Below are positions 1 to 42,736 of a stretch of 64,000 nucleotides of DNA, piece by piece; position 1 is the stretch's first letter; the number at the start of each line of letters is the position of its first letter. The stretch is taken from positions 8,308,001 to 8,372,000 of the forward strand of contig NC_090364.1 in assembly GCF_035084215.1 (NCBI RefSeq). Direction: 5' to 3'. This stretch comes from Heptranchias perlo. Lineage: Eukaryota. Under the pieces are notes generated by a model, which saw nothing but the letters and a program-made list of their open reading frames with translations, did no database searches and was not told where the DNA came from. The position numbers and the translations under genes are program-made.

Positions 1-2689
1 TTTACTTGGTCTTATTAAATTAGAAACTTACAGCAATCCCTAGAGGCCCAAGTCTTTTGATGAGCATGTTAAAACAAGCTTCTATTCACATTTGCCATTT
101 TGAACACCATGCACTTCAGTTTTTTTATTCCTTCCCCCTTTGTCTACTTCCCATCATGTCGTGAAGAAATTGACTACTTGCTGGGGCATCTCATGCAAGT
201 GGCCGTTGTTTGTGAGAATCTAGACAGTGTGTAGACAGGCTAGTCAATGACAAGGGACAGCATACCCAAGCCCCAACCTTTGAGAGTTTAGCAGCAGGCA
301 TGATGTCACTTATCTGTGTGTTTGCCAGTATTAAGGGTCACGGATCCCTCATTTAATCCCTCAATTGCCCTCAGGGCAATAAATGCTGGCCTTGCCAATA
401 ACGCCCTCATCCCATGACCAAACAAAAAATTTAAACAGCAGTGAGCTTGCTCCTCCCAACAATGGAAAGCAGGGTTACCAGTTAACCACTCTGATGTGGA
501 TATATTTTATGTGCTGTATCAGACTCATTTCAGTGACACCCAAATTTAAAATAATTCAGAAACAAAGAAAACAACACAGCCCCCGATGGCTCAATGTCAC
601 GGTACTGAGTCATTCGCGATCACAAGGTCCCAAGTTCGATCTCCGATCTGAGCTGATCTAGCTGGGGCAGCAGAGAGAGCACCCGGACTAGGGATGGAGG
701 GGGGAAAAAAAATCAAGCCTGTTTCCAACTCTTGATCACTTTCCTGTGCCCAACGGAAAATGTGGCTGCGGCTGTGACACCCACCACAGTCAAATAGCCT
801 GCCAACACTCGCTGCCTTCACTTACACATGAAGGATGGCCTCAAGGGCAAAACATTGGATGGCTATCTTCAGAGGGAGAAAACCGGAAGCAAGAATGCCT
901 GGTAAGTGTCAGCCATATATACACACAAATCGACTTTTCCTGGTGTTTACATGAGGTGGTAGGGGATGGAAAACTGGTGTACTTGTTGTTAAAACGTTTA
1001 TACATCAGTCGATCTCCTGTGGCATTGCTCGTGGATTCACATGGATTAGGCGCTTACCTATGGCTGCTGGTGGCAGGCACTCAGCATATAGTGATTGGAA
1101 CTGAAGTCCTTGCTCTCTCTCAGCTTACTCCGTTCCTTTCTTTTCCCTCTGACCTAATTCCATGACCCGTGCTCTCCAGCTGAGTTTATAATTCCTTGTC
1201 TGCACTCTACAGCTGTGTCATGGCATGACTAGCTGCACCCTTGTATTTCTGGTTGCTATTCTGCTCTGCTTTGTTTCTTTTCCTCAACCAGATGTTTTAA
1301 GAAATAATTAAAAGGGGCAAAATTCAACTTTAATCTGTTCCTGATTTTCTTTCTAGTGAACTCTCAACTTCAATTATTTTTCTTCAAAATGGCAGGTACA
1401 TAATCCAACAAGGCAATTTGTGGGTATTTGACTGACCCAGTGTCACATGATTAGTAGAAGCCTATCACTAATGTGACAGGCTCACAACAGTATTAGGCAA
1501 GATTTTTAGACACAACCACAATCTACAAAAAGCATTCAGCAGAATAAATATGGGTTGGTACCCAGCCCAACATTTACAACTATCACCTAGCATGGTACAA
1601 ATGTTCCAATAAGATTCAAGCAACACTCCTGCACTGCCATCCCCAAAAAACAGAAAATAAGACAGTGCTTTGGACTACTCTGGCCCAATATACCATCTGC
1701 ATAGTTGCTGTAAGTTCCCTGAGACCTAGAAGGGAGATTGGGAGGTGCATGCAATCTTTTCAAATTTTCTTATCATCCCACCACACAGATTTTCTCCCTT
1801 AACCACATCTCTCCTGAAAGTGGTGGTTCATGTAGGGATAGAGAGGCAGTGGTATTCCTCCAGTTCGTTACTCTAATTGTAATTCATCACCGGTGAGCCT
1901 ACATTGTGAATTTCAAATTTGGGGGGGGGGGGGGGGGGGGGGGGAAAGAGTGGGAGAGAGAGTAAAGTGTTAATTAAAAGTCAAAATCCTGCTTTTACCC
2001 CATATCTACTCCAATCAGGGTCATGGCATAGCAATCAGGAGCAGGAATGGTAGATTTCCCCCCCCATGCTTGCCTAAGCAATGCCATGGACAACTATGCA
2101 GCTGCTGGTGATGCTGCAGGCAACAGAGGTACATGATCACTTGTCTACCTCTCCTTAAGAAACAGGGAAAAGGAAAGTCTTTGGAGGCTAGTCTGTTACC
2201 TCACTGCTTTTATCCTTTACCATTTTGTCAATAATTAAACTGATTTTGTGTCAAAATAAATCTTTGTAAAGCACTTCATCTAACCTGAAATCAGCAGCAA
2301 GCAAACCCTTCCTTTTTAAAAAAAATTCGTGAATGGGATGTGGGCGTCGCTGCCAAGGCCAGCATTTATTGCCCATCCCTAATTGCTCGAGAAGGTAGTG
2401 GTGAGCCGCCTTCTTAAACTCCTAACCATTGCCTATATGTCAAGTTGTAACCATTTCTCTTCCTTCCTACATACCCTTGTTCAACATCTTCACTGACTCA
2501 CTTTTCTTTTAAAAAAAACACTACCTCCTCCGTTTTCAAACACGGACACTTTGAGCTTCTTTAGTACCCTTGCCCACCTACTCCAATCAACACAGCTCCA
2601 ACCAACCTTTCCAGTCTAATCACTTCATTGGCCAAAATCCATTAACCTATTATTAATAGTACAGAAAAACTTCTCGTCAGACCAGTCAA

Positions 2690-4450
2690 ACACTCTTAAG
2701 CGAGTCTCATCCTTGGAGGTTGTTAAGAGTTTGTGGTCTGTAACATTTGTCTTATATGCAGTTCAAGGCAGTTTCCTAAAATGGGATCTATTGCTCCTAA
2801 GCAATTTCCTTGTCTCACCTCAGCTCGAGCCTTCTCTAACACAAGGATGCGAGCAGGGACGTGGGGTTGAAAAATTCTGCTTAGCCCGTGCAGGCACTCA
2901 AAGCTAAGGACTAGGATTTTGAAACTAATGGGCAGCAACACAGGAAGCCAAGCAAGAACCAGGGTAATGGGAGTGCGGGGGTTTGAATGGGTAGGAAAAA
3001 GTAAGGCAGTCTTGATGAGTTATGATTTATTGAGAGTGGAAGCTGGGTGGCCCTTTAGGAGAACGTTGCAGAAGCCACGACTCGACGCGACAAAGGCGGG
3101 GATTAAGAGTCTCGTCAGCAGTGGGGAAGAAGGAAGAACAGGTGTAGGTGATGTTTCAACGGTGCAGGGCAGCAGTGACGGAACCGAAACGGGGGGAAAA
3201 AAACTCAGCTCCAGAACAAGTAATATGTCACGGGTTTGTACAATCGGATTTTGCCTGAGAGCAATTAGGGAGGTTGAAATTAAGGGGAGAGACATGTAGG
3301 AGCTGATCGGCTTTTAAAAGTATGGCTTCAGTTTTGCTTACCTTGAGCTGAAAATTTTGATTCATCCAAGACTTGGAACAGGCAGTTCCCAAGTCTTGGA
3401 ATCAAGAGGTGGCAGAATAGTAAAGCTGGGTATTATCGGCATTTATATGGAACCTGACCTTGTGCATCCATTTGATGCCACTATAGGGGCAACATATAGA
3501 CAACGAAAAGGAAAGGACCAAGGATCAAACCATGGGTACACTACTTATGACCATGCAAGCGAGAATCCATTGAAATATTTAATATTGCCTTTGGTACAAG
3601 TATGAATGGAGCTAATGGTGAACAAGCTCATGATGTTAGGATGGTAAGAAGAAACATTGGAGGAGGCTAAAATGAGCAACAGTATCAAAGGCAGCGGAGA
3701 GCTCGCGGAGGATAATAGGATGAAAATAGCCATGGTGACTTTGACCACAGAAGTCTGTGTTTTGAGCAGGGAAGAAATTATACTGAAGAATCCCAAACAA
3801 GGAGCAATGGGAGGGGTGGGAATGTAGTTCCAAGGCAGCAATAGTTCTGGAAGGAAAGGGAAGATTTGAGATAGTGTAATAACAGGAGTGGATTAAGATT
3901 GGTTTTAACAAGTTGCTTCAAAGGAAGTAGAAATGTTGCCAGAGATAGGCTGATAATGTCACCAAGCAGAAGGCGAAGGAGGAAAGTTGGGCGGTAAGGA
4001 GTAGGGCGAGGTCATGACAGCGGGATTTTATGAATAAGGTGATAGCAATAGGAGAGAAGAGGAAAAAAACTATGGAAGCAGGATAGGGTGGAAGGATGGA
4101 TCGAGCATGGGGTTAGAATCGGGAAGGAGGTGCAGATGCACAACTATGAAAAGCCACAATTTTGGATATAAAGTCCACGACTTCTCATATTTAGAATGGG
4201 AAGAAAGGATAGCAGGAGCAGAGGGGGATCATGATGATGGGCTGGTAGTGGAGGATCTAAGCTTAGAATTGGTAGTGGAACGAGAAGGGACAGGATACAT
4301 CCTCAACAAGGAGGAAAGAGTTGCCATTAGCGATACAAGTTTCTGCAAGGCTGATAACATTGGCATATGTCTTTCCAACGACCTGGCCAATGTTGAAGGA
4401 CTTCATTAGCCAAGGAAGCACACATTTCAAGGATAATGCAAAGGAAGGGG
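2690..4450 (-). mobile_element. Old degraded L2-clade LINE
   Basis: RT remnant ILRELSAAFDTVAH (L2 LLDLSAAFDTVDH) near 3690. Many stops. Confidence 0.65.
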
Positions 4451-7185
4451 TGTCAATTTTGATTTGGCGGAGGGGAGAGAGATGGTAGAAGGAGACACAG
4501 GGGACACTGGATAGAAGAGGTAAAACCTGCAGTTTTCTCATCAAACCACTCATTGTCATTGGTGGAAGCCTAGAGATGTCTGTTTGTGCCAACTCAGCCA
4601 TAGCTCAATGTGAGCAGCACAGTTCGATGCAAGTATATGTTGTTTGGGGTAATACCACCAAACTGCATTCTAAGCATGGCTAACCAGTGCATTGTAGAAC
4701 CTTAACATAACTGTCCTGGCTATATAATCTGACATTTCTTTAAAGCTTTTAAAATTGCTTCACCACATTGTCTTGATATTGAAAGTGACGATCTACGGTT
4801 ACTCCCAGCTCCCTTTTTAACTCCGCAAGTGCTACTTCAACGTCATGCACTGTATACTTATGTCCCAGATTTTTTTCATCTATGTGGAATACTTCACATT
4901 TATCAGTAATAAATGTAGTGTGCTCAGTTCAATAGCCAATCTTTGCAATTTTTATGCCGCATCCTTCGTCTTCACTCCTCTAACTTTGTGTCATCAGTAA
5001 ACTTAAACAGCTTATCACAAAGCAACCCCTCCAAATACGCCCATTCCACAGGAAAAGTGCCTAACCTTGGCTCAAGACATCCCCCAACAGGTCTGCTCAG
5101 AGGGCACTCATTGTGTGGGGAAATCGCAGGCCCAAACGCCTAAGCAGCTTAGGCAACGCACATACTTTATAGTTAACAATTCTGGCACAGTGCCATACAA
5201 CAGCAGTGCACTGTGCCAAGAATGTTCTACTTTAGATATAGTGGATGCTGCAAGCGCATGATTCCATATTGTTACCAAGGTAATTTTTTGTAATGTTTTA
5301 CAAACAAACAAGGAAAAAAAAAGATTTGTTCAGGTAAGAGTGTTTGAGGAACCAGCTGGTCAGCGTGTGAAGCAGGTAAGGAAATATTTACTTCAGCTTG
5401 TTTTCTCTCCTGGTCTCCTGTAAGTGCTGACTCTTGATGGAATATAGTCACCCTCTGGTATCTTGCCCAAGTGGCCATTCTTCATGCACAAGCCAAGGCA
5501 GTGAGTGCCAGTGGGTTATTCAACCACATTGAATCACAAACTCATCCAATGCCCGTACATGTGCACCTTCTGACCAGAATCACTGGACAGCAATGAGGAG
5601 TAAGAATCCAAACTGATTTGCCCCTCTCTTGCTGCAATGGCACTGAAGCCAATTATACCACAAGTACTGCCACAAATTCTGAGATCAGATAACTCAGCAT
5701 AGATTGGGAGTCAAACCTGGGATCTTTTAGTCTGCATGAATCAGTTAAAAAGTGCCATCAACTGAGCCATCGTGAGAGCAGAGTTTTAAGAGTACATTTT
5801 AAAAAATTTGTTCATGGGATGTGGGCATCGCTGGCAAGGCCAGCATTTATTGCCCATCCCTAATTGCCCTTGAGAAGGTGGTGGTGAGCCGCCTTCTCGA
5901 ACCGCTGCAGTCCGTGCTGTGAAGGTTCTCCCACAGTGCTGTTAGGAAGGGAGTTCCAGGATTTTGACCCAGCGACGATGAAGGAACGGCGATATATTTC
6001 CAAATCAGGATGGTGTGTGACTTGGTGCTCCATCCTTCAAAGCTGCACACCTAATTATCCTCCAACAATTCCCTCTAGCTGGCCACCTCCTACATCAGCT
6101 GAGATGGGATGTAACTAAAGCTTCATAACAGAGGATTTGGCAGTGCAGTGTACCACCGAACTGCCATGGAGTGTTTGGGCACAGGTCCATATCTGCAATT
6201 GTTCGGCTCCTGGCTGGGCTGCCACAAAGTGGCAGAATTAAAAACAAGTCACTTCTTCATGGGGAAAACGTTTTTTTTTAAAAAAAGGGAAACAATGAAG
6301 TAAGGGAAGTCTGGAAGATTTCTTTTTACACACAAAGGGTAAGAGAGTTGTGGAATAAGTTACCAAAGAAATCCATTGAAACAGTATAAACAGGTTCAAA
6401 ACATTCATTGAGCAGGGATTACGTGATATGATAAGACAAGTGGTAGGTGGGGTTGACATCTTTCCAAATGGGGTGGCCTTAGTGGGTCTAATCTTCTCTT
6501 CCTAAAAGTTGTTGGGAGATTACACTACACGCTTGTTATACACAGCACTGGGCAGTCACTCTCCTAAGGTACGCAGGCTGGGAGACCAAAGAAAGGGGGG
6601 GGGGGGGGGGCGGGAGGAGCTTAATCAACACACATGCCGTACATTTCAGATTACTACTGAGTTATTTTTATTTCGTCCCCACAAGATTTCAGATCACAGA
6701 AATTCCTTCTTCAGCTGGGCAACAGAATGATATTGTTACAGGAGGTATAACCAGATCACTGTCAATTAGTCAAACTGCAACAACACGTTTTACCACTTCT
6801 CTCACGAGATAAAAGGGAGCCACTACACATGAAGAAAACTGGGGGATGGTAAACCCTTGTGCAATATTTCCACCTCTCTCCAGAGGGCACAGAAGCACAG
6901 TAGGTTAAGATTTCACATCGACAGGGAGCCCTCCAGTAACTCAGCTAAGTGTTAATTCTTTGTATGTTTACCTGCTCAAAGTGTCGACACGCTATCCAAC
7001 TGCATAAGGCATCACAGCCAAACTTAATCCTGTCCTCCCGACATCCACATGTGCACTTAGCCCAGCGATCATCATCGGGAATCCTCGCTGATCTTACCTG
7101 TCTCAAGCTTGGCAGTCAAATGCAGCACCCTCAAATAATACTGATATCAGCAGAAGGCTGGCATCCTGAATGTCACAATGTCAAG

Positions 7186-7357
7186 GACCAGGCTTTGCTG
7201 AATAATGCTGTGCAGATTCTGAATACATGGAACAAGGATGGTCGAGATCTTGATCCAGAAGCATTCCAACGACTGATAACCACAGCACGTTCCATTGCAA
7301 TGATGCGACCCAACAACCTTGTGCACTGAAGTGTGAAAGCACCACAATCTGATAAAG
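7186..7357 (+). pseudogene. UBR4: Isolated UBR4-derived exon fragment
   Basis: [53 protein letters not shown] versus remembered human UBR4 [55 protein letters not shown]. In-frame TGA at 7327. Ends at AG|gtgagc. Confidence 0.85.
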
Positions 7358-7483
7358 GTGAGCCTGAACACGTGGGTGAGCAAATGCAGAAAATACTGGA
7401 AATATTGGGGGAACTGGGGGAGGGCACCGGTAAGGGCACCAATAAGTGGGGGCAGCCACCAATAAATGGGGGAGGGCACCAGT

Positions 7484-9101
7484 AAGAAAGGAGGAAGAGA
7501 GAAAACAGGGAACTACAGGCCAGTTAGCCCGACATCAGTTGTCAGGAAAATGCTGGAATTCATTATTAAGGAAGTGGTAACAGGGCACTTAGAAAAACAT
7601 AATATGATTAGGCAGAATCAACATGGTTTTATGAAAGGGAAAACGTGTTTGACAAATCTATTAGAGTTGTTTGAGGATGTAACTAGCAGGGTAGATAAAG
7701 GGGAACCAGTGGATGTAGTATATTTGGATTTTCAAAAGGCATTCGACAAGGTGCCGCACAAAAGGTTGTTACACAAGATTAGGGCTCGTGGAGTTGGGGG
7801 TAATATATTAGTATGGACAGAGGATTGGTTAACAGACAGAAAAGAGAGAGTAGGAATAAACTGGCCATTTTCAACTTGGCAGGCTGTAACTAGTGGGGTG
7901 CTGCAAAGATCAGTGCTTGGGCCTCAGCTATTTACAATCTATATTAACGACGTAGATGAAGGGACCGAGTGTAACGTTTCCAAGTTTGCTGACGATACAA
8001 AACTAGGTGGGAAAGTAAGCTGTGAGGAGGACACAAAGAGTCTGCAAAACTGCCTGAAAGGGTGATGAAAGCAGATTCAATCATGGCTTTCAAAAAAGAA
8101 TTGGATAAATACTTGGAAGGGAAAAAAGTTGCAGAGCCATGGGAAAAGAGCGGGGGAATGGGACGAACTGGGTTGGCCTTACAAAGTGCCAGCACAGGCT
8201 CGATGGGCCGAATGGCCTCCTTCTGTGCTGTAACCATTCTATGATTCTATATAGACAGGTTAAGTGAGTGGGCAAGAAGGTGGCAAATGGAGTGCAATAT
8301 GGGGAAATGTGAGGTTATTCACTTTGGTAGGATGAATAGAGGAACAGAATATTTTTTAAAATGGTAAGAAACTATTAAATGTTGGTGTTCAGGGAGATTT
8401 GGGTGTCCTTGTCCACGAAACACAAAGTTAACATGCAGGTACAGCAAGCAATTAGGAAAGCAAATGGTAAATTGGCCTTTATTGCAGGGGGTTGAAGTAC
8501 AAGAGTAAGGAAGTCTTACTACAATTGTACAGAGCTTTGGTGAGATCTCACCTGGAGTACTGTGTTTTGGTCTCCTTACCTAAGGAAGGATATATTTGCC
8601 ATAGAGGGGGTGCAATGAAGGTTCACTAGATTGATTCCAGGGATGACAGGGTTGTCCTATGAGGAGAGGTTGAGTAGAATGGGCCTATATTCTCTGGAGT
8701 TTAGAAGAATGAGAGGTGATCTCATTGAAACATATAAGATTCTGAGGGTGGTTGACAGGGTAGAGGCTGAGAGATTGTTTCCCCTGGCTGGAGTGTCGAG
8801 AACTAGGGGCATAGTCTCAGGATAAAAGATAGATGATTTAGGACTCAGATGAGGAGGAACTTCTTCATTCAGAGGGTTGTGAATCTTTGGAATTCTCTAC
8901 CCCAGAGGGCTGTGGATGCTAAGCCGTTGAATAGATAGATTCAAGAATGAGATCAATTGATTTTGGACTCTAACGGAATTAATGGATATGGGGATCGGGC
9001 AGGAAAGTGGTTCCGGTTGAAGATCAGCCATGACATTAAATGGCAGAGCAAGTTCGAGGGGCTGTACAGCCTACAGCCTACTCCTGCTCTTATTTCTTAT
9101 G
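7484..9101 (+). mobile_element. 5'-truncated CR1 LINE (reverse transcriptase plus 3'UTR) with a nested CR1 3' end at ~8049-8249
   Basis: GNYRPVS, QHGFMKGKTCLTNL, YLDFQKAFDKVPH and KFADDTKL motifs. Frameshifted downstream. Tail tatttcttatgtt. Confidence 0.95.
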
Positions 9102-12100
9102 TTAAACGTGGCGACTGGTTGAGGGTGGGGGGGGGGGGGGAGGTGCTGAGGCGTAGTGGATGAAGAAGAAAGGAATAGAAGGATATGCTGATAGCGTTAG
9201 AAGTAAATAAAATGGGAAGAAGCTTGTGTGGAGCATAAACACCAGCATAGGCCAGTTGGGCCGAACGGCCCGTTTCTGTCCTGTAAATTCTATGCATGTC
9301 TATGTACCTGTTACCTAGATGATCAGGCTGACACAGGAATTCCAGTTGTGCAGTGGGACCATGAGGGCATCACTATAATCAGCAGGGAGGAGGAGGAGGA
9401 GGAATCTACACAATTATCCAACGATTATATATATCAGCTATAAAATCTCTTTCCTTAGTAAATGAGACCATTCCAATTCAGAATATAGAACACACAACAA
9501 AATGTATAAAATTTTCCATGAAATATTGTGTTATTCTGTGTGACATTGCCGTGGTAATTAAAATCAGAATTATGGATGAATGAATGCAGCTCCCACTGTT
9601 AATTCCTGCAACAGTCAGAGATTCCAAAATATTGGGCATGGGCGTTAGGAAAGCTCTCTTCAATTTAATAGCAAAGCTGCAAAGTTAAACTCCAAAAGCT
9701 ACACTCAGGCCTAACTGTACTTTTAATTGGCCCAGCTTTTCCATTACCCACCGTGCACAAATCACACCTTTGCTTCACCACAACCTCACTTCCCTCGCCC
9801 CCTCCCCGGTCAATGCAGATATACCCGTGAAGTTTCCTTGGCCGCATCAACAAAGCGCCAGAGCTGAAGACACAGCTTAGTTATTTGTATTAAATAGTTC
9901 GCACTTCCTGATTAAATATACTCAGCGTCATGAATAGGCACGCAACTACATGACTCTCCAAGAATGTCATCTCATTTGGATTATACTTTTCAAGCAACAC
10001 GTGGAATATTTTTCCACCTGATGACTCAACTAACTGATAAGGACTTTATCTTTCAAGTAGCCAAGTCAACATATGCATCACAAATCACCAACACATTCTG
10101 TACCATAACTGAAACTGTATCAGTGCAAACAAGACAGACAGACTTACATTTATGTAGCACGGATCAAATCTCTCAAATTTCTCAAAGCTTCACGTCGAGC
10201 AAACTGCTTTAAGGTGCAGTGACTACTCTTACTTAAGCAAACTCGGCAGCCATTCTGTGCCAGCAACACCCCATCAACAGCCTCAAAATAAATGACCAGT
10301 TAATTTGTATTTTGTGGTATTGATTGAGCAAGCACACAGAGAATTCTTCTTCAAAACTGCCATGCGATCTTTAACATCGACTGGAATAAAGAGAAAGAAC
10401 TGCAGTTTGAAGTCTTATCTAAAGGACAACTCTGACAATGCAGCACTCCCTCGGTACTGCACTTGCGTGCCAGCCTAGTTCAGGAATGTCCAAGTTTTTG
10501 TCTTTTTTGATATGTACCAAGAAGCCTCAGGCCATATATAAAGTTAAAATAAATACTCCCATTAATTTGTATATATCTACACCTGTTGATACTAAATGAT
10601 CTTGACGTTCTGACCTAGAGTCTATGCATTAATTTTTAGAGCCGCCTGCTTTTACTGCAAAGTGTTCATCAAATGTAACTTTTTGCTGCAGAGCATGACA
10701 CAATAATATGTGTAGTGAGACACCAAACAATTTTGAAGTGCTTCAAATAATCTGTCATATTACATCACTTACAATCCAAAGGACCTGCATCACTCCAAAG
10801 CTTTATCACTGTGTACATTTAATATTTCGTACGTATTTTTCCAAATTTCTCCGTTTTCGTACTACCCCCCTCCCTTTTCTCAGTAATTTTGACCCGTCTT
10901 CCCAGATATTGAATCCTTGCAGAGATACAGTCCCATGGACCTTAGTGCCCTCCAATACCTCACCCAAGTAACCGTTATTCATTTTCATGCCAAGAAAGTG
11001 AGCGTCAAGCGATTCATCCGAGACGGAATGTAGCACCCTTCCCGCTGCCCTACCTGAGATCAGCTGACTCAGCAGAGACTGGGAATCGAACCTCAGATCT
11101 TCCTGATATGTGTGATTCAGCTACCTCACTGGATAAATGCACTGAGACCTCAGGAGTCCTTTTCCCTCCTGAAGGAGGTGATGCTGCAGAGATATCAATG
11201 GGTGCAGCCACCCCTGTGCTATCTTGTCCAAGAGAGACTGTTGGGGTCACGACACAGCTAAGTCTGAATCTATTCCCATGTATAAACATGCAGTTTCCAG
11301 CAGAAGTCACTGGATAGTGGTTAGAAAAGGCAACAGAAAACATATACTTGCAATGGCATGCAACCAAATCCCTTTCCCCCCACACTACTGACAACATTTG
11401 AAATAAAACAGCTTCTATTCCATTAAACAGAGCCCAGCAACCAAAAATAGTTACACTTTAAAGCCTATGTACTTTTAAATTACTTTAGTTATAAAAAGGC
11501 TGTGAACTGTCTCTTCAGTGGCACAGCAGATTGACAAATTATTGAAAAGTTTACAACAGATCCAAAGGAAAACTTTACTCATTGATAATGTTTGGAATAA
11601 TCTGATCAAGGCAAGAGAGACAAAAACACTGAGGTTGTTCAAGATGCAACTGGGTTTCAGGACAGAAGAGCTAATGTACTAGAGGGGATGTTTTCCTATC
11701 CCATCAATGTTTCACCTCCCCCCATCTCCTCTGAACAGACAAACTCCTGCTGAGGTACAGTTCCACATCCTCTGCTACCTCACCCAACTGTTATTCTTTA
11801 TGTATAAGCCTAGACACTCACTGGCAGGTACTTAACTATGGATGGTATCACAGCTGAGCCTGATCCCATTCTCAAACAAAAATAAAATTGGCTGTATGGA
11901 TGTTAAGTACAGGACCACTGGACAGCGATCAAGAACCCTGTTATTGATTTTTTTTTGGGGGGGGGGGGGCTAATTTCCAACCCCCCCCCCCCTCCCTCCA
12001 AATCTGTAGCACTCCTAGCACTGACCTAGCTGAGACCAACTGACCTCTGAACAGACTGGGGATCGAGCCAACAACAGACACCTGAATTTACATGGTGCAT

Positions 12101-12406
12101 TTATTCCCTTGAATTACTTTTGGAGTACAATTACTTTTATTACATAGGGAAGGCCCCAGCTTTGCCAATCTTTATGGCTCAGCAACTGACTGAACCATCG
12201 TGTTCTGTTCTTGTTTTACAATTGTTTTTATATAAATAGGCCTCCCCCAGTCTGTACTTTTAACAGTTAATACTGCAACAGGAACACACACACACACACA
12301 GTTGAGTCAGAAAGTGAATGTAAAAGTATTCACAGCCTGAGGAGACAGTGGAGGGGCTTTCATATAAATGAAGTGACATATAACAAGTTGAGAGGAAGAG
12401 ACTTAC

Positions 12407-12990
12407 TTTTAATCAGTGAGTGGGTAATCCCCACCGCCAGACGGTAATGAACGTGGTTCTTGTTGAATGGAGATGGTGAAACGCGAAGCAACCTGCCGCT
12501 GAGAAGCTGCATTGGGCGCCAATCTCAGCAACCCGTCCCGCCCGGCTTGCCCCTCTCCTGCCCCGGCTACTCTCTCCGAGAAAGCCCGGGGATTGACCTG
12601 TTTCCGCTAGGCCTCGACAGACACAGAGAGAGAGAGAGAGGGGGGGGGGGGGGGGGGAGGGAGAGCGGCTCAAGTTTTGTGTGAAGAAGAAGGACAAAAA
12701 AAAAAGGAGTTAAGGGGGTGGTGGGGGGGGGGGGGGGAGGGAAAGAAAAGTGCGAGGGAAGGCGGCGGGGAGCTCGAGTTGGAAGAGGCGGCACAAAGCG
12801 TCTGCCCTTCCCTGCGCCGCGCCCCGGGCCCGTGTCCGCCTCTCGCTCTCTCCGTTGCTATTTACTATCGCTCACTCGCTCTGGCTCCCTCCACACAACA
12901 TGTCCGCCCGGCTCGGTCCTCCTGCATCCCACAGTGCACCGCACCGCCAGAAGGGCGAGAGTGGTGGGTGGGGGGGGGGAGAGGGCGGAC
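12407..12990 (-). promoter_or_regulatory. CpG island and non-coding first exon of a leftward gene, probably PPP6R1 (synteny only)
   Basis: Strong CpG island with donor AAA|gtaagt (GT at 12406-12405). In human, PPP6R1 lies directly downstream of HSPBP1 on the same strand and has a non-coding exon 1. No coding exon found in 1-12400. Confidence 0.6.
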
Positions 12991-13059
12991 CATCCTGCGC
13001 CTCTGTACCCTTGTTAGCAATATTATTGCTTCACACTAATCTTATAATATTTATATATT

Positions 13060-37115: not shown

Positions 37116-38764
37116 TCAGATGGAATCGTCGCTCGTCGAAGAGGAGATATCGAAGTTTATGGAGCCGTGGCTGACCACCAGACGCAGACGCTTGGATCGA
37201 GCAAATGGCGTGAAAGCCGCAGCTCTTTTGCCATCTTCAACCGAAGAAACGAAACAGTTGTGCGACAGCACTCCCTCGCCGTGCGAGGGCCCCAGCCCCA
37301 TCACTTCTGAGCTACAGAGCCTCGTTTCCTGCGGGGAGCTCGCGAAACTCCTGAAGCGCTTACACTGGGGTGCGTTACCGGCTGCCGAGCCCAGTCCATT
37401 AGCCGTTTCTATTCCCTCGTCGTTGTTCCCCCTCCTTTTGACGGTTTGCTTTGGTAACTGCCGACCGCCTGTTTTCTGTCTGTTAACCTGCCGCTTGTTT
37501 CGCCTCGCTGGTTTGCTCGCACGGGAGCACAGCTGAGCACAGCGTAAAGTCCTCAATGATCCGTCATCTGTTATCTGGTCAGATGCCATTTTGGAATCCA
37601 GCAGACTGCTCCCTCCCTCTCCTTCCATGCTCAACCTTGCAGCCAATCTCCTCCTAACATACCATGTGCGAGTGGCAGACTCGCAGATCTTTGAAATGTC
37701 TTCCAGAACGACGCGGACATCTCGAATTTCCGATGAGGGTGCAACTCCATAACTCTCGTCCGCTGAGACCCGTGGGCCTTGACTACAGTTTTGCTGAGGT
37801 GTCCCGTTGCCTTGTACTGAGCTCTGTGCTTCATTCTTGACACTAGTTACAAGGACAGCATCCTTGCTCAAATCAATTTTCACAAAATGGGTCAAACCAA
37901 ACGCTCTTCCTGGCAACACCTCTGGGCTTGGTAAGCTCTTTCTCTTTTGATTCATCCTCTTTTTCAACATCCTCTTCCGCCTCCTCCTCCTCTTTCTTAC
38001 CAGGATGCCACCAGACACCTTCTCACTGCCAGTTTGCGAATCAAGAGGAAACTGGCCTGGAGAAAAGGCTTCATGTGTGCTCTGTGGTTTGGATGGTGTC
38101 TTGCAGCCAAATGCTTGGTCTGGTGAAGGAACGTTTGCTTCAGTTTTTAAATCAAGAGCATTTAAATTCTTCAAACTTGGCTTCAGTGACTTCCTAGGGT
38201 TGGGTTCAGATGCTGGAGCTCCATTGGTGCTCACAGGAGCTTTCTGATTGGTCACCTCTTCTGGTCGCTGAGAAGCAGCTAGGTCCAGGTCGGCCTCCGG
38301 ATTGTCCCACAAATATCTCCCAAGGTTTCTTGCAGCTGCTTCATTCAAGATGGTCAACGTCCCAGCTAGATTTGCGCAATCGTACAGATCCACTCGTAAG
38401 TCTTTCAAGACGACGCCTTCCGGCATCAGGAATGTTGCAGGCATTTCAGGATTGGTTTCCTTAGCTGTAGGCTGGAGCTGCAACGTTGAGGAATACCCAA
38501 ACCCATGGTGAAATCTTTCCGCCATCCTCTTCTGCAATAGAGATTCTGCACCGTGATAAGTAGTCCTGCTCTCATTCTGAAGATACTCCATTGAGCATCC
38601 ATTGCTTGCCACCTTCTTCCCTTTCCCATCGTGAAAGTTCTGCAGCTGCAATGCCACCGATTGAATTGCAGACGATGACTTTGAGTGGGCGCTACGTGGG
38701 GTCCGCCTTTTCCATTTTCCTCGTCTATTCCTCCTTGAAGTTAAGGAGAGTCTTCTGGCTGAAG
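37116..38764 (-). CDS. KMT5C: KMT5C large terminal coding exon (548 aa, ending FTPFARSKRLRLVVSHGSINFDISSSTSDDSI*)
   Basis: ttttctttcttcag|CT, phase 1, inside the 563-aa ORF. KRLRLVVSHGSI is the KMT5C C-terminal motif. Joined CDS is 2538 nt = 845 aa. Confidence 0.92.
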
Positions 38765-39888
38765 CTGAAGAAAGAAAACAGTAAGATTTAGCAATAATGC
38801 TCAGCATTAGGGAGTTCTAACAAGATGAGATCCCAAACCCAGTTTTTTTTTACCCAATTTTGCTCTGAAGGCATTACTCTTGCTGGTATGTCACCCGTGA
38901 GTCTATTCTTTATGTGCAGGCTATTGGACCATGGAGAGCATCACAACTAATTCTGTCCTCATTTGGCATCCAGATGCATATCCAGTAGGGTTCAATGGAT
39001 AGCAGTCAAACTGGATGAATTTTCCCCTCCATATCACAAGGACAATGCCGCCAATTATAGCACTTGCACTGCTGCCTTAATGGGATCATCTAACAACCCC
39101 AGTTTGTTTGATGTGGCGATACTTGGGACAAGTTCTCCATTTACCTTTTGGTATTTTGCACCATTGTTCTTTGTCTGCTTGGACAGCAGAGAGGAATATG
39201 CAGTCTAATCCCAGGCTGCTGTCAACGCCCCCAGTAGAAACCTTTATAACAATGTGCTCAGCCCACACCTTGTGTACTGCGTCCAGTTCTGGTCACCAAG
39301 ACATAGGAGAGTCATTCAAAAATTGGAGGGTGCTCAAAGATAAGAAACAAGACTGATCCCTAGACTGAATTATGAAGAAACATGGGGCTTTGCAGCCTTA
39401 AAGAGAGGCTTCTGTCAAGTTGATCTTACAGAGGTGTATAAGATTTAAATAGTATGGAAAATTACATTAAATTAAATTGCGAGAATAGGTCAAGGGGGAC
39501 ACAGATTGAAATTAGTAAAGGGTAAATTTCGGACTGATATTAGGAATCACAGCGTGATCAATGTATGAGATGGACTTCCAGGAAGAGTAGTGGAGATGAA
39601 AATCCTGGAATCATTTAAGAACCAGTCGGATATTGTAAGATCATTCTGGATGGATGAGCTAAGGTAAGCCAAATGGTCTTCCTCATCTGTAATTATCTTT
39701 TGAGCGACAACATTTTCAACTGGATGACCAATTTTAACGTGTTCGACTATTGTTAGAAGATTCCCGAATCAGGGAACGCATTTGAAAGTTGCATTAGCCA
39801 CCCCCACCCCAACAACAGAACCATAATCCAGATATCCTGACCCTCCGCCAATAAGAGAAGCATAAACTTTCCCTTTGACAGTACTCAC

Positions 39889-40070: not shown

Positions 40071-40356
40071 CTGGAAAGAGTAAAGATTAACTTTTTTTAA
40101 AAATGGGTTGTCATTAATGGATATCTGGTCATTCACAGCTGCCCAGCCCTCCCACATTTCTCCCTCCTCTCACAAAGGAGTTGACTCTTGCAAGTATATG
40201 ATTCAATGACTGCAGGCAGCCCTTCAATATACTGGCCAAACGCAAGCCTAAAATGTATGTGTCGGCAAGCCACTGCCTGTGATCATGACTTTCAACTAAA
40301 ATTTATGAACACTAAATTAGGAGGTCTGGGGAACCCAGGGTCATTTTATCCCTCAC

Positions 40357-40493
40357 CTTTCACAAGTGTAGCATTCGCACAGCTCGTTGTTTTCACCAAA
40401 AAAACTATCACCATAGTAACAGGTAATCTCATCTCCAGGCTCAATAACTCGAAGTACTTTGACACACGCCCTGTCGCCTTCGGTTGGAACAAA
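40357..40493 (-). CDS. KMT5C: KMT5C coding exon 6 ([28 protein letters not shown]...CECYTCE), SET/post-SET
   Basis: cag|TTT ... AG|gtgagg, 137 nt, phase 0->2. Post-SET CxCxxC zinc ligands. Confidence 0.97.
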
Positions 40494-40617
40494 CTGTGCA
40501 GGAAAAGAAAGAGAAATATGAGACGGATGTGAAACACAAAATGGCAGACCAGTTATGCAATGCACTGAAGTACCGATACCCCGTGTTACAGAGCAGTAGC
40601 TCTGTGCTGTGCGTTTC

Positions 40618-41033
40618 CACTCTTTTTCCCTGGAGAGTAGGAGGTTAAGGGGTGATCTTATAGAAGTCTATAAAATAATGAGGGGCATAGATAAGGTCGA
40701 TAGTCAAAATCTTTTCCCAAAGGTAGGGGAGTCTATAATGAGGGGGCATAGATTTAAGGTGAGAGGGGAGAGATACAAAAGGGTCCAGAGGGGCAATTTT
40801 TTCACTCAAAGGGTGGTGAGTGTCTGGAACGAGCTGCCAGAGGCAGTAGTAGAGGCGGGTACAATTTTGTCTTTTAAAAAGCATTTGGACAGTTACATGG
40901 GTAAGATGGGTATAGAGGGATATGGGCCAAGTTCAGGCAATTGGGACTAGCTTAGTGGTATAAACTGGGCGACATGGACATGTTGGGCCTAAGGCCTGTT
41001 TCCATGTTGTAAACTTCTATGATTCTATGATTC
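40618..41033 (+). mobile_element. Young CR1 3' fragment in a KMT5C intron
   Basis: Uninterrupted ORF2 C-terminus [18 protein letters not shown]...GIEGYGP, with (ttctatga)n tail. Confidence 0.92.
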
Positions 41034-42736
41034 TTAGCTGTGCTGTCTCTGGAATTCCCTCCCTAAACCTCTCTGCCTCTCTCTCCTCTTTTAAGATGCT
41101 CCTTAAAACGTACCCCTTTGACCAAGGGTGGCGGAGAGGACCCAGGGGCTGAGTGGCCGGGTCCTGCTCCTACTTCTTGTGTTCTTTAGATTTGTGGTTG
41201 GGATCAGATCAGCCATGATCTTATTGAATGGCGGAGCAGGCTCGAGGGGCCGATTGGCCTACTCCTGCTCCTATTTCTTATGTTCTTATGTTCTTATGTT
41301 CTTGTCACCTGCCCTAATATCTCCATATATAGCTCGGTGTCAAATTTTGTTTGATATCGTTCCTGTGAAACGCCTTGGGGACGTTTTACTACATTAAAAG
41401 TGCTGTATAAATGAAAGTTGTTGTTGTCGTCATGAGGAAGTGTGAAAGGTCAAGCCATTTTTCCACAGAGGGAAGGCTACTTTCACCCACCTCCTGGTTT
41501 CACAGCTGCTTTAGCAAGACCAGGTACCCCACTTGCCCTCCAGCCTGGCCAACTACTCTGTTTTACATCAGTCTGGTTTCGGATCTGGCCGCTCACTGAA
41601 CCACAAAAGCCTGGTTTTCGACCCAGTTTAAAATGTAAATACACCGGTGAATTGATGCACATCAGCAGAGGTCGGAAGAAAAGCAATTAGCTTTCTAAAC
41701 ATACCCATCTCCCATCACAGTCCCCACCTCCACAGCACAATGACTGGTCCACAGTGTCAATATGTTTGTAATCTCCCAACCCCTGCTCCATGTCTGGATT
41801 TTGGACTCGGCAAATAGTGACAGTCCTACTGCCCACTGAGCCACTGATATCCCTTCAGGTCCCAGTCCCAAGAAAGGGAACAGGGAGAAAGAAAACATTT
41901 AAGGGAATAGTTCACTGACAATTAAAAGTTACCTGAATTGTGAGAAAAGGCACTGTCTGGTGTAATACTGAACCATATAGAGCAGGAAGGTTCCAGGGAT
42001 TGATCCCCATCCTGTATTAAGTTAGCACATCTCAGTCACGGAGGCAATTAGGGCACTTTAATTGGCCTATGGGCTATGTGGGGGTGGGGTAGGACCTAAT
42101 TACAAGTGCATGTGTACGAACATCAAGTGAGCATAGAAAAGCTATTTACCTCCTTGGAACGTGCCAAAACATAGTCGATGAATTACTTTTGAAGTGAAGT
42201 CCCCATTCTTTTGAAGCCAAACATGGCAACCAATTTCCCAAACAAGTTCCCAAAAACAGCAAGTGAGATGAACGACCAGTGACTCGGTTTTGGTGGTGCT
42301 GGTTGAGGAATGAATGTTGACCGGGAGACCCGGAGAACCCTTTTTTTGAATGGTGCCGTGAGAACTTTTATGTCCACCTGATCAGGCAGACAGAACGGCT
42401 TTGTTTAACGTCTCATCCATACAATGAACCTCCAACAGTGTGGTGCTCCCTCAGTACTGCCCTGAAGTGTCAGCCTAGAATATGTGCTCAAGACTGTTGC
42501 AGGACTGAACTCAGAATCTGCTGATTCAGAGCCAAGCTGACACTCCGTCATGATTTGGCATTTTCATGAGAGGAGGGGAGGGGGAAAAAAAGTGAGTAAA
42601 ATTTTAAATAATGTGAATTTTGGAAGTTTTGAACCTAACACTGGAAGTCACAGGGCAAGCTCCTGGGTCAACATGAGGCAACTGCTACTACAATATAAAA
42701 CCAGCTGAGAAAGCATAAAAATGGTCGCTCTCTTAC

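What the first reader, a model, noticed from the sequence alone, without database searches (positions are those of the whole stretch)
7171..9101. Stray UBR4 exon with its splice donor joined to the 5' end of a truncated CR1
Seen: 7186-7357 encodes ~57 codons closely resembling a central UBR4 segment. It is disabled by small indels giving TGA at 7327 and ends at a donor AG|gtgagc. About 125 nt of intron-like sequence follows, running directly into a 5'-truncated, same-strand CR1 at ~7484. No other UBR4 exon is visible, and the piece lies antisense inside another gene's first intron. Known: UBR4 is a ~100-exon gene on human 1p36, not a neighbour of HSPBP1, and LINE reverse transcriptases can switch templates. 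Inference: CR1 captured UBR4 pre-mRNA, or a UBR4 exon+intron+CR1 block was copied here at DNA level. CR1 is usually considered stringent for its own RNA, so capture would be notable.
Basis: partly seen in the sequence, partly recalled or inferred. Interest (0 to 1): 0.75.

Follow-up and report, generated by a model that had tools for sequence, protein, structure and literature searches.

The report
Half-spliced UBR4 RNA fossil on CR1
A dead 240-letter copy of part of the UBR4 gene sits at the head of a truncated CR1 jumping gene, apparently with one intron already removed and the start of the next one kept, so it was likely copied from a half-spliced UBR4 RNA when the element's copying enzyme jumped templates: a rare form of a known accident.

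Summary
The UBR4 piece is real (human residues 2543-2590, E 1e-17) and is a broken second copy. DNA contigs of one sample show two versions of the exon; the RNA contigs carry the other version. The same-strand, 5'-truncated CR1 starts at 7483/7484.

(1) The UBR4 mRNA matches from 7173, while the parent's genomic match starts at 7184, the splice acceptor. So about 13 letters of the previous exon are joined on, with the intron between them gone (chance 1e-4 to 2e-2). (2) Only 55 letters of the next intron (7358-7412) are shared with the likely parent contig; 7413-7483 is repeat-like filler of unknown source.

The template was therefore most likely half-spliced pre-mRNA, and a DNA-level copy is unlikely. 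A template jump by CR1 reverse transcriptase is the best reading (0.55). Read-through from a CR1 once lying in that UBR4 intron is not excluded (0.22). There is no informative target-site duplication, and the host-gene context is unverified.

LINE template-switch chimeras are known; my searches found no paper on CR1 with protein-coding pre-mRNA. This scan noted a similar ZFYVE1-CR1 case in another genome.

The parts
7173..7185 (+). Likely 3' end of the upstream UBR4 exon, joined without its intron (or a few letters of it plus imperfect microhomology with the target)
   Evidence: mRNA contigs of X5 and X6 align from 7173; the parent's genomic contig starts at 7184 by depth-table arithmetic in both DNA runs; upstream exon ends in YHNHK in L001 and P0010, window reads CHNVK
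7186..7357 (+). Broken copy of one internal UBR4 exon (from human residue 2544), 172 nt against 175 nt in the parent, ending at its splice donor
   Evidence: exon of 175 nt with the same ends in L001
7327..7329 (+). TGA stop inside a small complex change (net 3 letters fewer than the parent)
   Evidence: tables 3-4
7358..7412 (+). First 55 nt of the downstream UBR4 intron (parent assignment of the matching contig is inferred)
   Evidence: records 4 and 12 fit 7336-7412 with 3 differences, then run on 90-97 letters unlike the window
7413..7483 (+). 71-nt G-rich filler of imperfect 12- and 20-nt repeats; source not found
7484..9103 (+). 5'-truncated CR1-type LINE (RT to 3' tail), about 1.4 kb without the nested piece
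   Evidence: table 7, 34, 35, 52
8050..8250 (+). Nested 3' fragment of another repeat family with an ATTCTATG-type tail, inserted into the RT frame (inferred later event)
   Evidence: RT relatives stop at 8056 and resume at 8251; copies elsewhere in the window
9044..9103 (+). 3' stem-loop and short tail of the CR1
   Evidence: fold z -3.27 for 9020-9103, 0 of 200 shuffles as good, helped by a private 7-nt duplication; tail shared with 5 of 5 window copies aligned
9099..9102 (+). 4-letter motif ATGT, also at 7170 and 7178: possible tiny target-site duplication or microhomology, at chance level
   Evidence: a shared 4-mer is expected in 33% of random pairs

Best explanation
The piece is a dead second copy of one UBR4 exon with 55 letters matching the likely next intron and a likely spliced-on end of the previous exon, lying just upstream of a 5'-truncated CR1; it likely arose in one insertion in which CR1 reverse transcriptase copied its own RNA, then likely jumped onto a half-spliced UBR4 pre-mRNA. 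Inferred order: priming at CR1's own 3' tail; about 1.4 kb of CR1 copied; stall at 7484; 71 nt of filler made by slippage or short jumps; landing 55 nt into the unspliced intron; copying through the exon and across the already spliced upstream junction; joining to the target about 13 nt later. It then decayed (TGA, later nested insertion). It has no likely function.
For: Second copy: two contig arms over 7197-7365 in both DNA runs, one identical to the window, one with 14 substitutions and 3 extra letters that the mRNA contigs share. Left junction real: a contig with 0 differences spans 6650-7218 in both DNA runs. Spliced upstream junction: mRNA aligns from 7173 (17 places in bin 7160-7189), the parent's genomic contig from 7184 (5.98 and 5.88 places); the intron position is seen directly in L001 (495-nt intron), and 25 of 29 exon-bearing hits have Q (acceptor codon) before the exon's D. 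Chance of the 11-letter extension: 1e-4 to 4e-3 by binomial, 8e-4 to 2e-2 with free stopping. Downstream intron retained: 55 nt. The likely parent contig leaves the window's sequence at 7412 and no joint to CR1 is listed (tables 5, 8). Same orientation as the CR1, as expected for template switching (PMC13174262, passages). Decay of the two parts does not differ significantly: 9 of 86 conserved RT residues changed, against 2 of 47 to 4 of 61 UBR4 codons; Fisher p 0.21-0.40 for the 10 of 86 count. Extra 5' nucleotides attributed to template jumps are common in L2-clade inserts (PMC2666801, PMC4760211, passages).
Against: No informative target-site duplication ties both parts to one event. The filler has no detectable source in the flanks, the CR1 or the window. 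The likely parent contig ends after 167 and 174 letters, close to the 178 expected if it ran into a CR1 at the same distance; its unaligned letters were not shown. Assigning that contig to the parent rests on its 3 differences and on depth in X2 (6.75 against 6.5 parent, 3.8 copy); X1 is ambiguous (28.6 against 21 and 34.5-48.7). The mRNA letters at 7173-7188 were not shown, only a total of 17 differences, 3 more than the DNA arm. Point estimates make the CR1 look older (3' end 19 of 137 from the majority of three window copies). Copy-parent differences are 9 synonymous to 2 non-synonymous, more skewed than a neutral copy predicts (p 0.004-0.02 without a CpG term). All runs come from one sample.
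Confidence: 0.55

Rival explanations
1. 5' read-through (transduction): a truncated CR1 with its filler first inserted 55 nt into this UBR4 intron; the half-spliced UBR4 pre-mRNA carrying it was then primed at the CR1 tail by an active element's enzyme and copied in one run into the exon. The source allele was lost, or the parent still has a CR1 there behind a changed spacer.
For: Needs one RNA and respects 3'-end stringency (PMC3747384, passages). Explains the filler as an older 5' junction. Parent contig lengths of 167 and 174 are near the 178 predicted for running into a CR1. The CR1 looks somewhat more decayed than the UBR4 piece (not significant). A lost intronic source is one model given for human L1-mRNA chimeras (PMC13174262, section 13).
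Against: The likely parent contig is unlike the filler after 7412 and no joint to CR1 is listed, so a lost allele or a rewritten spacer must be assumed.
Confidence: 0.22
2. Two separate events: a UBR4 pre-mRNA fragment was inserted on its own (by another LINE's enzyme or as an RNA-templated repair patch) and a CR1 landed next to it, before or after.
For: No target-site duplication spans both; 71 nt of unexplained filler separate them; CR1-type pieces are frequent in this window, so adjacency is not rare.
Against: Same orientation and abutting position; no poly(A) or repeat tail of its own on the UBR4 piece; similar decay of both parts.
Confidence: 0.14
3. DNA-level copy of an exon-plus-intron block from the UBR4 gene (small duplication or repair patch), with the 7173-7183 match being chance.
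For: The extension is short, has an inferred 2 mismatches in 11, and lies in a small tandem-like stretch; under harsh scoring its chance is 2%.
Against: The parent's genomic match stops at the acceptor AG (7184) while mRNA goes on to 7173; no upstream intron letters are shared; the stretch before the exon is only 52% pyrimidine.
Confidence: 0.05
4. The donor was a diverged UBR4 duplicate, or the exon copy stayed under protein-level selection for a time before it broke.
For: 9 synonymous against 2 non-synonymous differences; all 4 arginine-codon CpGs are kept in the copy while 4 parent third-position CpGs are absent.
Against: The intron part differs at only 3 of 55; only two exon versions are listed in the DNA runs; small numbers, and CpG effects were not modelled.
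Confidence: 0.04

Closest known systems
LINE template-switch chimeric retrocopies (U6-L1; U6-L2, U6-RTE in platypus and lizard; one unresolved U6-CR1 in turkey: PMC4476161, passages; fungal bi- and tripartite chimeras: PMC2104539, abstract)
   Same: A cellular RNA copy in sense orientation at the 5' end of a truncated LINE; for L2, 5'-truncated partners and only small target-site duplications
   Different: The partner is an internal piece of a protein-coding pre-mRNA in a half-spliced state, not a small RNA; a 71-nt filler intervenes; no target-site duplication is demonstrable
Human L1-mRNA 5' chimeras (Law and Burns 2026, PMC13174262, section 13)
   Same: mRNA exons fused in sense to the 5' end of a LINE, often with no source LINE left in the parent intron
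   Different: Those are mostly first exons ending at a donor and joined to near full-length L1, read as cis- or trans-splicing; here an internal exon keeps 55 nt of intron and the LINE is a 1.4-kb CR1 3' part
PittSINE, a CR1-mobilised SINE proposed to have gained a tRNA head by template switching (PMC5729268, passages)
   Same: CR1 reverse transcriptase proposed to switch to a cellular RNA
   Different: tRNA partner that founded a family; here a single dead copy from pre-mRNA
5' extra nucleotides of L2-clade inserts (PMC2666801, PMC4245944, PMC4760211, passages)
   Same: Extra sequence at the 5' junction of a stringent LINE, attributed to template jumps
   Different: There the templates are said to be flanking genomic or LINE DNA; here the filler has no local source and the longer part comes from a distant gene's RNA

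Membership tests
CR1-clade LINE | Non-LTR reverse transcriptase related to CR1 RTs | tested here: met
   PF00078 E 7e-21; named hits among the best 120 are bird, turtle and elephant-shark RTs, up to 64% identical. That these are CR1 is my recalled knowledge; the records do not say CR1
CR1-clade LINE | 3' hairpin followed by an octamer microsatellite tail (PMC4316615, passage) | tested here: met
   Stem-loop z -3.27 here, -2.08 and -2.54 in two other copies; tail shared with 5 of 5 copies, repeated in some, little more than one unit here
CR1-clade LINE | Heavy 5' truncation | tested here: met
   Loose ends of other copies continue upstream of 7483/7484 in all four runs (table 7)
CR1-clade LINE | Placement in the CR1 clade on a tree with named CR1 and L2 references | not tested
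   No named references were fetched
LINE template-switch chimera | 5' partner copied from a cellular RNA | tested here: met
   mRNA match crosses an exon junction that the genomic parent interrupts; chance 1e-4 to 2e-2
LINE template-switch chimera | Partner in the same orientation as the LINE | tested here: met
   Both on +
LINE template-switch chimera | One target-site duplication around the whole unit | tested here: inconclusive
   Only 4-letter repeats, chance 33%
LINE template-switch chimera | No such LINE at the partner's own locus | tested here: inconclusive
   Likely parent contig departs at 7412 with no listed joint to CR1, but ends at 167/174 letters and its other letters were not shown
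LINE template-switch chimera | Both parts arrived together (empty site in relatives) | not testable with these tools
   No genome held; only one sample holds the stretch; decay is compatible
Spliced L1-mRNA 5' chimera (PMC13174262) | Exon donor joined directly to the LINE; first exons; near full-length LINE | tested here: not met
   55 nt of intron kept, internal exon, 1.4-kb LINE part
Processed pseudogene | All introns removed, mRNA 3' end with poly(A) | tested here: not met
   Intron start retained; 3' end is a CR1 tail

The most novel reading that the evidence does not exclude
In cartilaginous fishes CR1 reverse transcriptase recurrently jumps onto nascent, half-spliced pre-mRNAs and scatters internal exons with intact splice donors through the genome: an exon-shuffling route for a LINE thought not to move host genes, each insert being a fossil record of splicing order in the germ line.
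Probability: 0.25. Interest if true: 0.6.

Novelty: new variant of a known kind. Interest (0 to 1): 0.38.

Why it matters
CR1 is described as unable to make ordinary retrocopies because it recognises its own 3' end (PMC5470649, passages). This insert shows how host coding sequence can still move with CR1: at the 5' end, from nuclear RNA caught between two splicing steps. One dead copy has no function. If such inserts are common, screens that look only for intron-less, poly(A)-tailed retrocopies miss them, and CR1-rich genomes have an uncounted supply of donor-bearing exons.

Tried and rejected
No own genome was held, so copy number and the parent locus could not be read from an assembly.

The window's own version of 7366-7482 is covered by no listed contig in the two DNA runs laid, and the four holders have 0.81 of the words. 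This is a hole, not evidence either way. A short branch next to a very deep repeat may be pruned in contig building (my recollection of how such assemblers work). The join of the UBR4 piece to the CR1 therefore rests on the window's assembly alone.

No RNA holder was listed. The two RNA-guess runs show only the parent's letters on the exon and no cover on most of the flank; this does not show that the copy is silent.

Other searches that led nowhere:
- Protein search for longer relatives found nothing, being capped at 2000 residues.
- First metagenome scan: 0 of 598 stretches confirmed. The second gave 4 loci of 256 stretches, none matching as closely as the sample's own parent.
- Pfam has no model for this UBR4 part. 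Rfam: 0 matches in the window.
- Filler source: 6 nearby regions scored no better than random stretches (shares 0.16-0.93) and there is no other copy in the window.
- Target-site duplication: nothing above 4 letters.
- Host gene: 107 frames of 50 aa or more in 1-13000 gave RVT_1 plus four weak hits below their cut-offs, taken as chance.

Rejected: a live UBR4 exon spliced to exons outside the window (stop codon; the mRNA carries the other version), and a processed pseudogene.

Literature searches found no report of this insert or of CR1 fused to protein-coding pre-mRNA. The library lacks most subscription papers; the 2015 J Mol Evol note on CR1 stringency was seen only as a citation. Supplements, including Table S5 of PMC13174262, were not opened.
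Full report
Observation. The + strand frame at 7177-7326 matches human UBR4 residues 2543-2590 (E 1.2e-17) and ends in TGA at 7327. A LINE reverse transcriptase follows on the same strand (PF00078, E 7e-21). Named hits among its best 120 relatives are bird, turtle and elephant-shark RTs, up to 64% identical, with unnamed records up to 73%; I read the element as CR1 and the host as probably a cartilaginous fish (inference; the CR1 label is recalled). The element's 3' end aligns with 5 of 5 other window copies up to about 9103 and folds into a stem-loop (z -3.27). RT relatives break off at 8056 and resume at 8251, and the gap is a repeat fragment found elsewhere in the window, so a second element is nested inside. 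HSPBP1 and a KMT5B/C-type gene lie further along. The claim that the piece sits in a first intron could not be verified.

It is a second copy. No genome was held, so I laid contigs of two DNA runs and two RNA-guess runs, all from one sample, on 6650-7540 at 80% likeness. Both DNA runs show two arms over 7197-7365: one identical to the window, one with 14 substitutions and 3 extra letters. Contigs of 8936 and 12002 letters from the RNA runs carry the second arm's letters and stop at the donor, 7357. They are taken as the mRNA of the working gene. A contig with no differences spans 6650-7218 in both DNA runs, so the left junction exists in the reads.

The upstream intron appears to be gone. The mRNA contigs align from 7173, 13 letters before the exon start at 7186. 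The parent's upstream genomic contig was not listed, but the depth table can be solved for it: it covers 5.98 (X1) and 5.88 (X2) places of bin 7160-7189, so it starts at 7184, the acceptor AG, against 17 places for the mRNA. The intron position is conserved. In locus L001 an exon ending in YHNHK is followed by a 495-nt intron, then a 175-nt exon with the same two ends as ours. Of 29 exon-bearing protein hits examined (of 53 found), 25 have Q before the exon's D and 4 have K. The window reads CHNVK there. The mRNA letters at 7173-7188 were not shown; the total of 17 differences is 3 more than in the DNA arm, one inferred at 7188 and two at 7180-7181. The chance of such an extension is 1e-4 to 4e-3 by binomial and 8e-4 to 2e-2 with free stopping. 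It may be 13 copied letters, or fewer plus imperfect pairing with the target; both need a spliced template.

The downstream intron is kept, but only 55 letters of it. Records 4 and 12 fit 7336-7412 with 3 differences and then run on for 90 and 97 letters unlike the window. I assign them to the parent from those differences and from depth in X2; X1 is ambiguous, and depth is a weak guide. The next 71 letters (7413-7483) are G-rich imperfect repeats with no source in six nearby regions or elsewhere in the window. Loose ends of other CR1 copies place the truncation at 7483/7484. No target-site duplication above 4 letters exists, and 4 letters is chance level (33%).

Mechanism. Shown: a second, broken copy; mRNA match from 7173; same orientation; truncation point. 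Derived by arithmetic: genomic match from 7184. Inferred: a half-spliced pre-mRNA template, and co-insertion with the CR1. The best reading (0.55) is a template jump. The enzyme primes at CR1's own tail, copies about 1.4 kb, makes filler, lands 55 nt into the unspliced intron, and copies across the exon and the spliced junction. The main rival (0.22) is read-through from a CR1 that once lay in that UBR4 intron; it predicts the same anatomy. For it: the parent contig ends at 167 and 174 letters, near the 178 expected on entering a CR1, and the CR1 looks a little older. Against it: no joint to CR1 is listed and the contig is unlike the filler. Separate insertions (0.14) and a DNA-level copy (0.05) follow. 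Decay is compatible with one event: 9 of 86 conserved RT residues are privately changed, against 2 of 47 to 4 of 61 UBR4 codons (Fisher p 0.21-0.40, computed on the 10 of 86 count; p 0.09-0.20 at the loosest conservation threshold).

Unexplained. Copy and parent differ at 9 synonymous and 2 non-synonymous sites in 7186-7326, more skewed than a neutral copy predicts (p 0.004-0.02 without a CpG term). Four of the nine are at parent CpGs, yet all four arginine-codon CpGs survive in the copy. The CR1's 3' end differs at 19 of 137 sites from the majority of three window copies, a crude yardstick that mixes subfamilies.

Comparison with what is known. Template switching is reported for L1, L2 and RTE with U6, plus one unresolved U6-CR1 case (PMC4476161, passages), and for a fungal LINE (PMC2104539, abstract); it is proposed for a CR1-mobilised SINE (PMC5729268, passages). 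Seventeen human L1-mRNA chimeras are mostly first exons on near full-length L1 and are read as splicing products (PMC13174262, abstract, passages and section 13); ours fails those features. Extra 5' nucleotides are frequent in L2-clade inserts (PMC2666801, PMC4245944, PMC4760211, passages). Stringency is defined for the 3' end (PMC3747384, PMC5470649, PMC4316615, passages), so a 5' passenger does not contradict it. PMC4494074 (passages) adds template-switch additions to crocodilian SINEs. Eight searches found no paper on CR1 fused to protein-coding pre-mRNA; subscription papers are largely missing. An unchecked note of this scan describes a ZFYVE1 exon plus intron on a CR1-like element in another genome (e1-7805861); it is a lead on recurrence, not support.

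Verdict. Real, dead, and a new variant of a known kind: a LINE 5' chimera whose passenger is most likely a half-spliced coding pre-mRNA. Interest 0.38; 0.6 if it proves recurrent.

Noticed in passing
window 7147-7167 (+): Reads in pieces as Q-Q-K and L-A-S, recalling QQQTKSLLASL of the upstream UBR4 exon in P0010 and L001. The mRNA contigs did not align here, so it may be chance; if real, the insert starts about 25 nt earlier with internal gaps.
   Followed up: no
window 8050-8250 (+): Nested 3' fragment of a second repeat family with an ATTCTATG-type tail; at least a dozen related pieces in the window.
   Followed up: partly
window 9065-9081 (+): Private 7-nt tandem duplication in the CR1 3' stem-loop; it forms an 8-pair inner stem in the predicted fold.
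   Followed up: partly
window 6980-7069: Short high-copy repeat fragment in the left flank, hit by many contigs in all four runs.
   Followed up: no
window 12400-13000 (-): GC-rich promoter-like stretch with a donor-like motif at 12406; no downstream coding exon recognised within the window, so the gene is unidentified.
   Followed up: partly
window 41150-41320 and 59790-59965: Two CR1 3' ends share an unusual 5' part that repeats a tail-like segment before the usual end: possibly a small CR1-derived subfamily.
   Followed up: no
window 37116-38816 (-): 566-codon open frame without a Pfam match, downstream of the SET-domain exon at 40356-40667; probably the long last exon of the KMT5B/C-type gene.
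   Followed up: no
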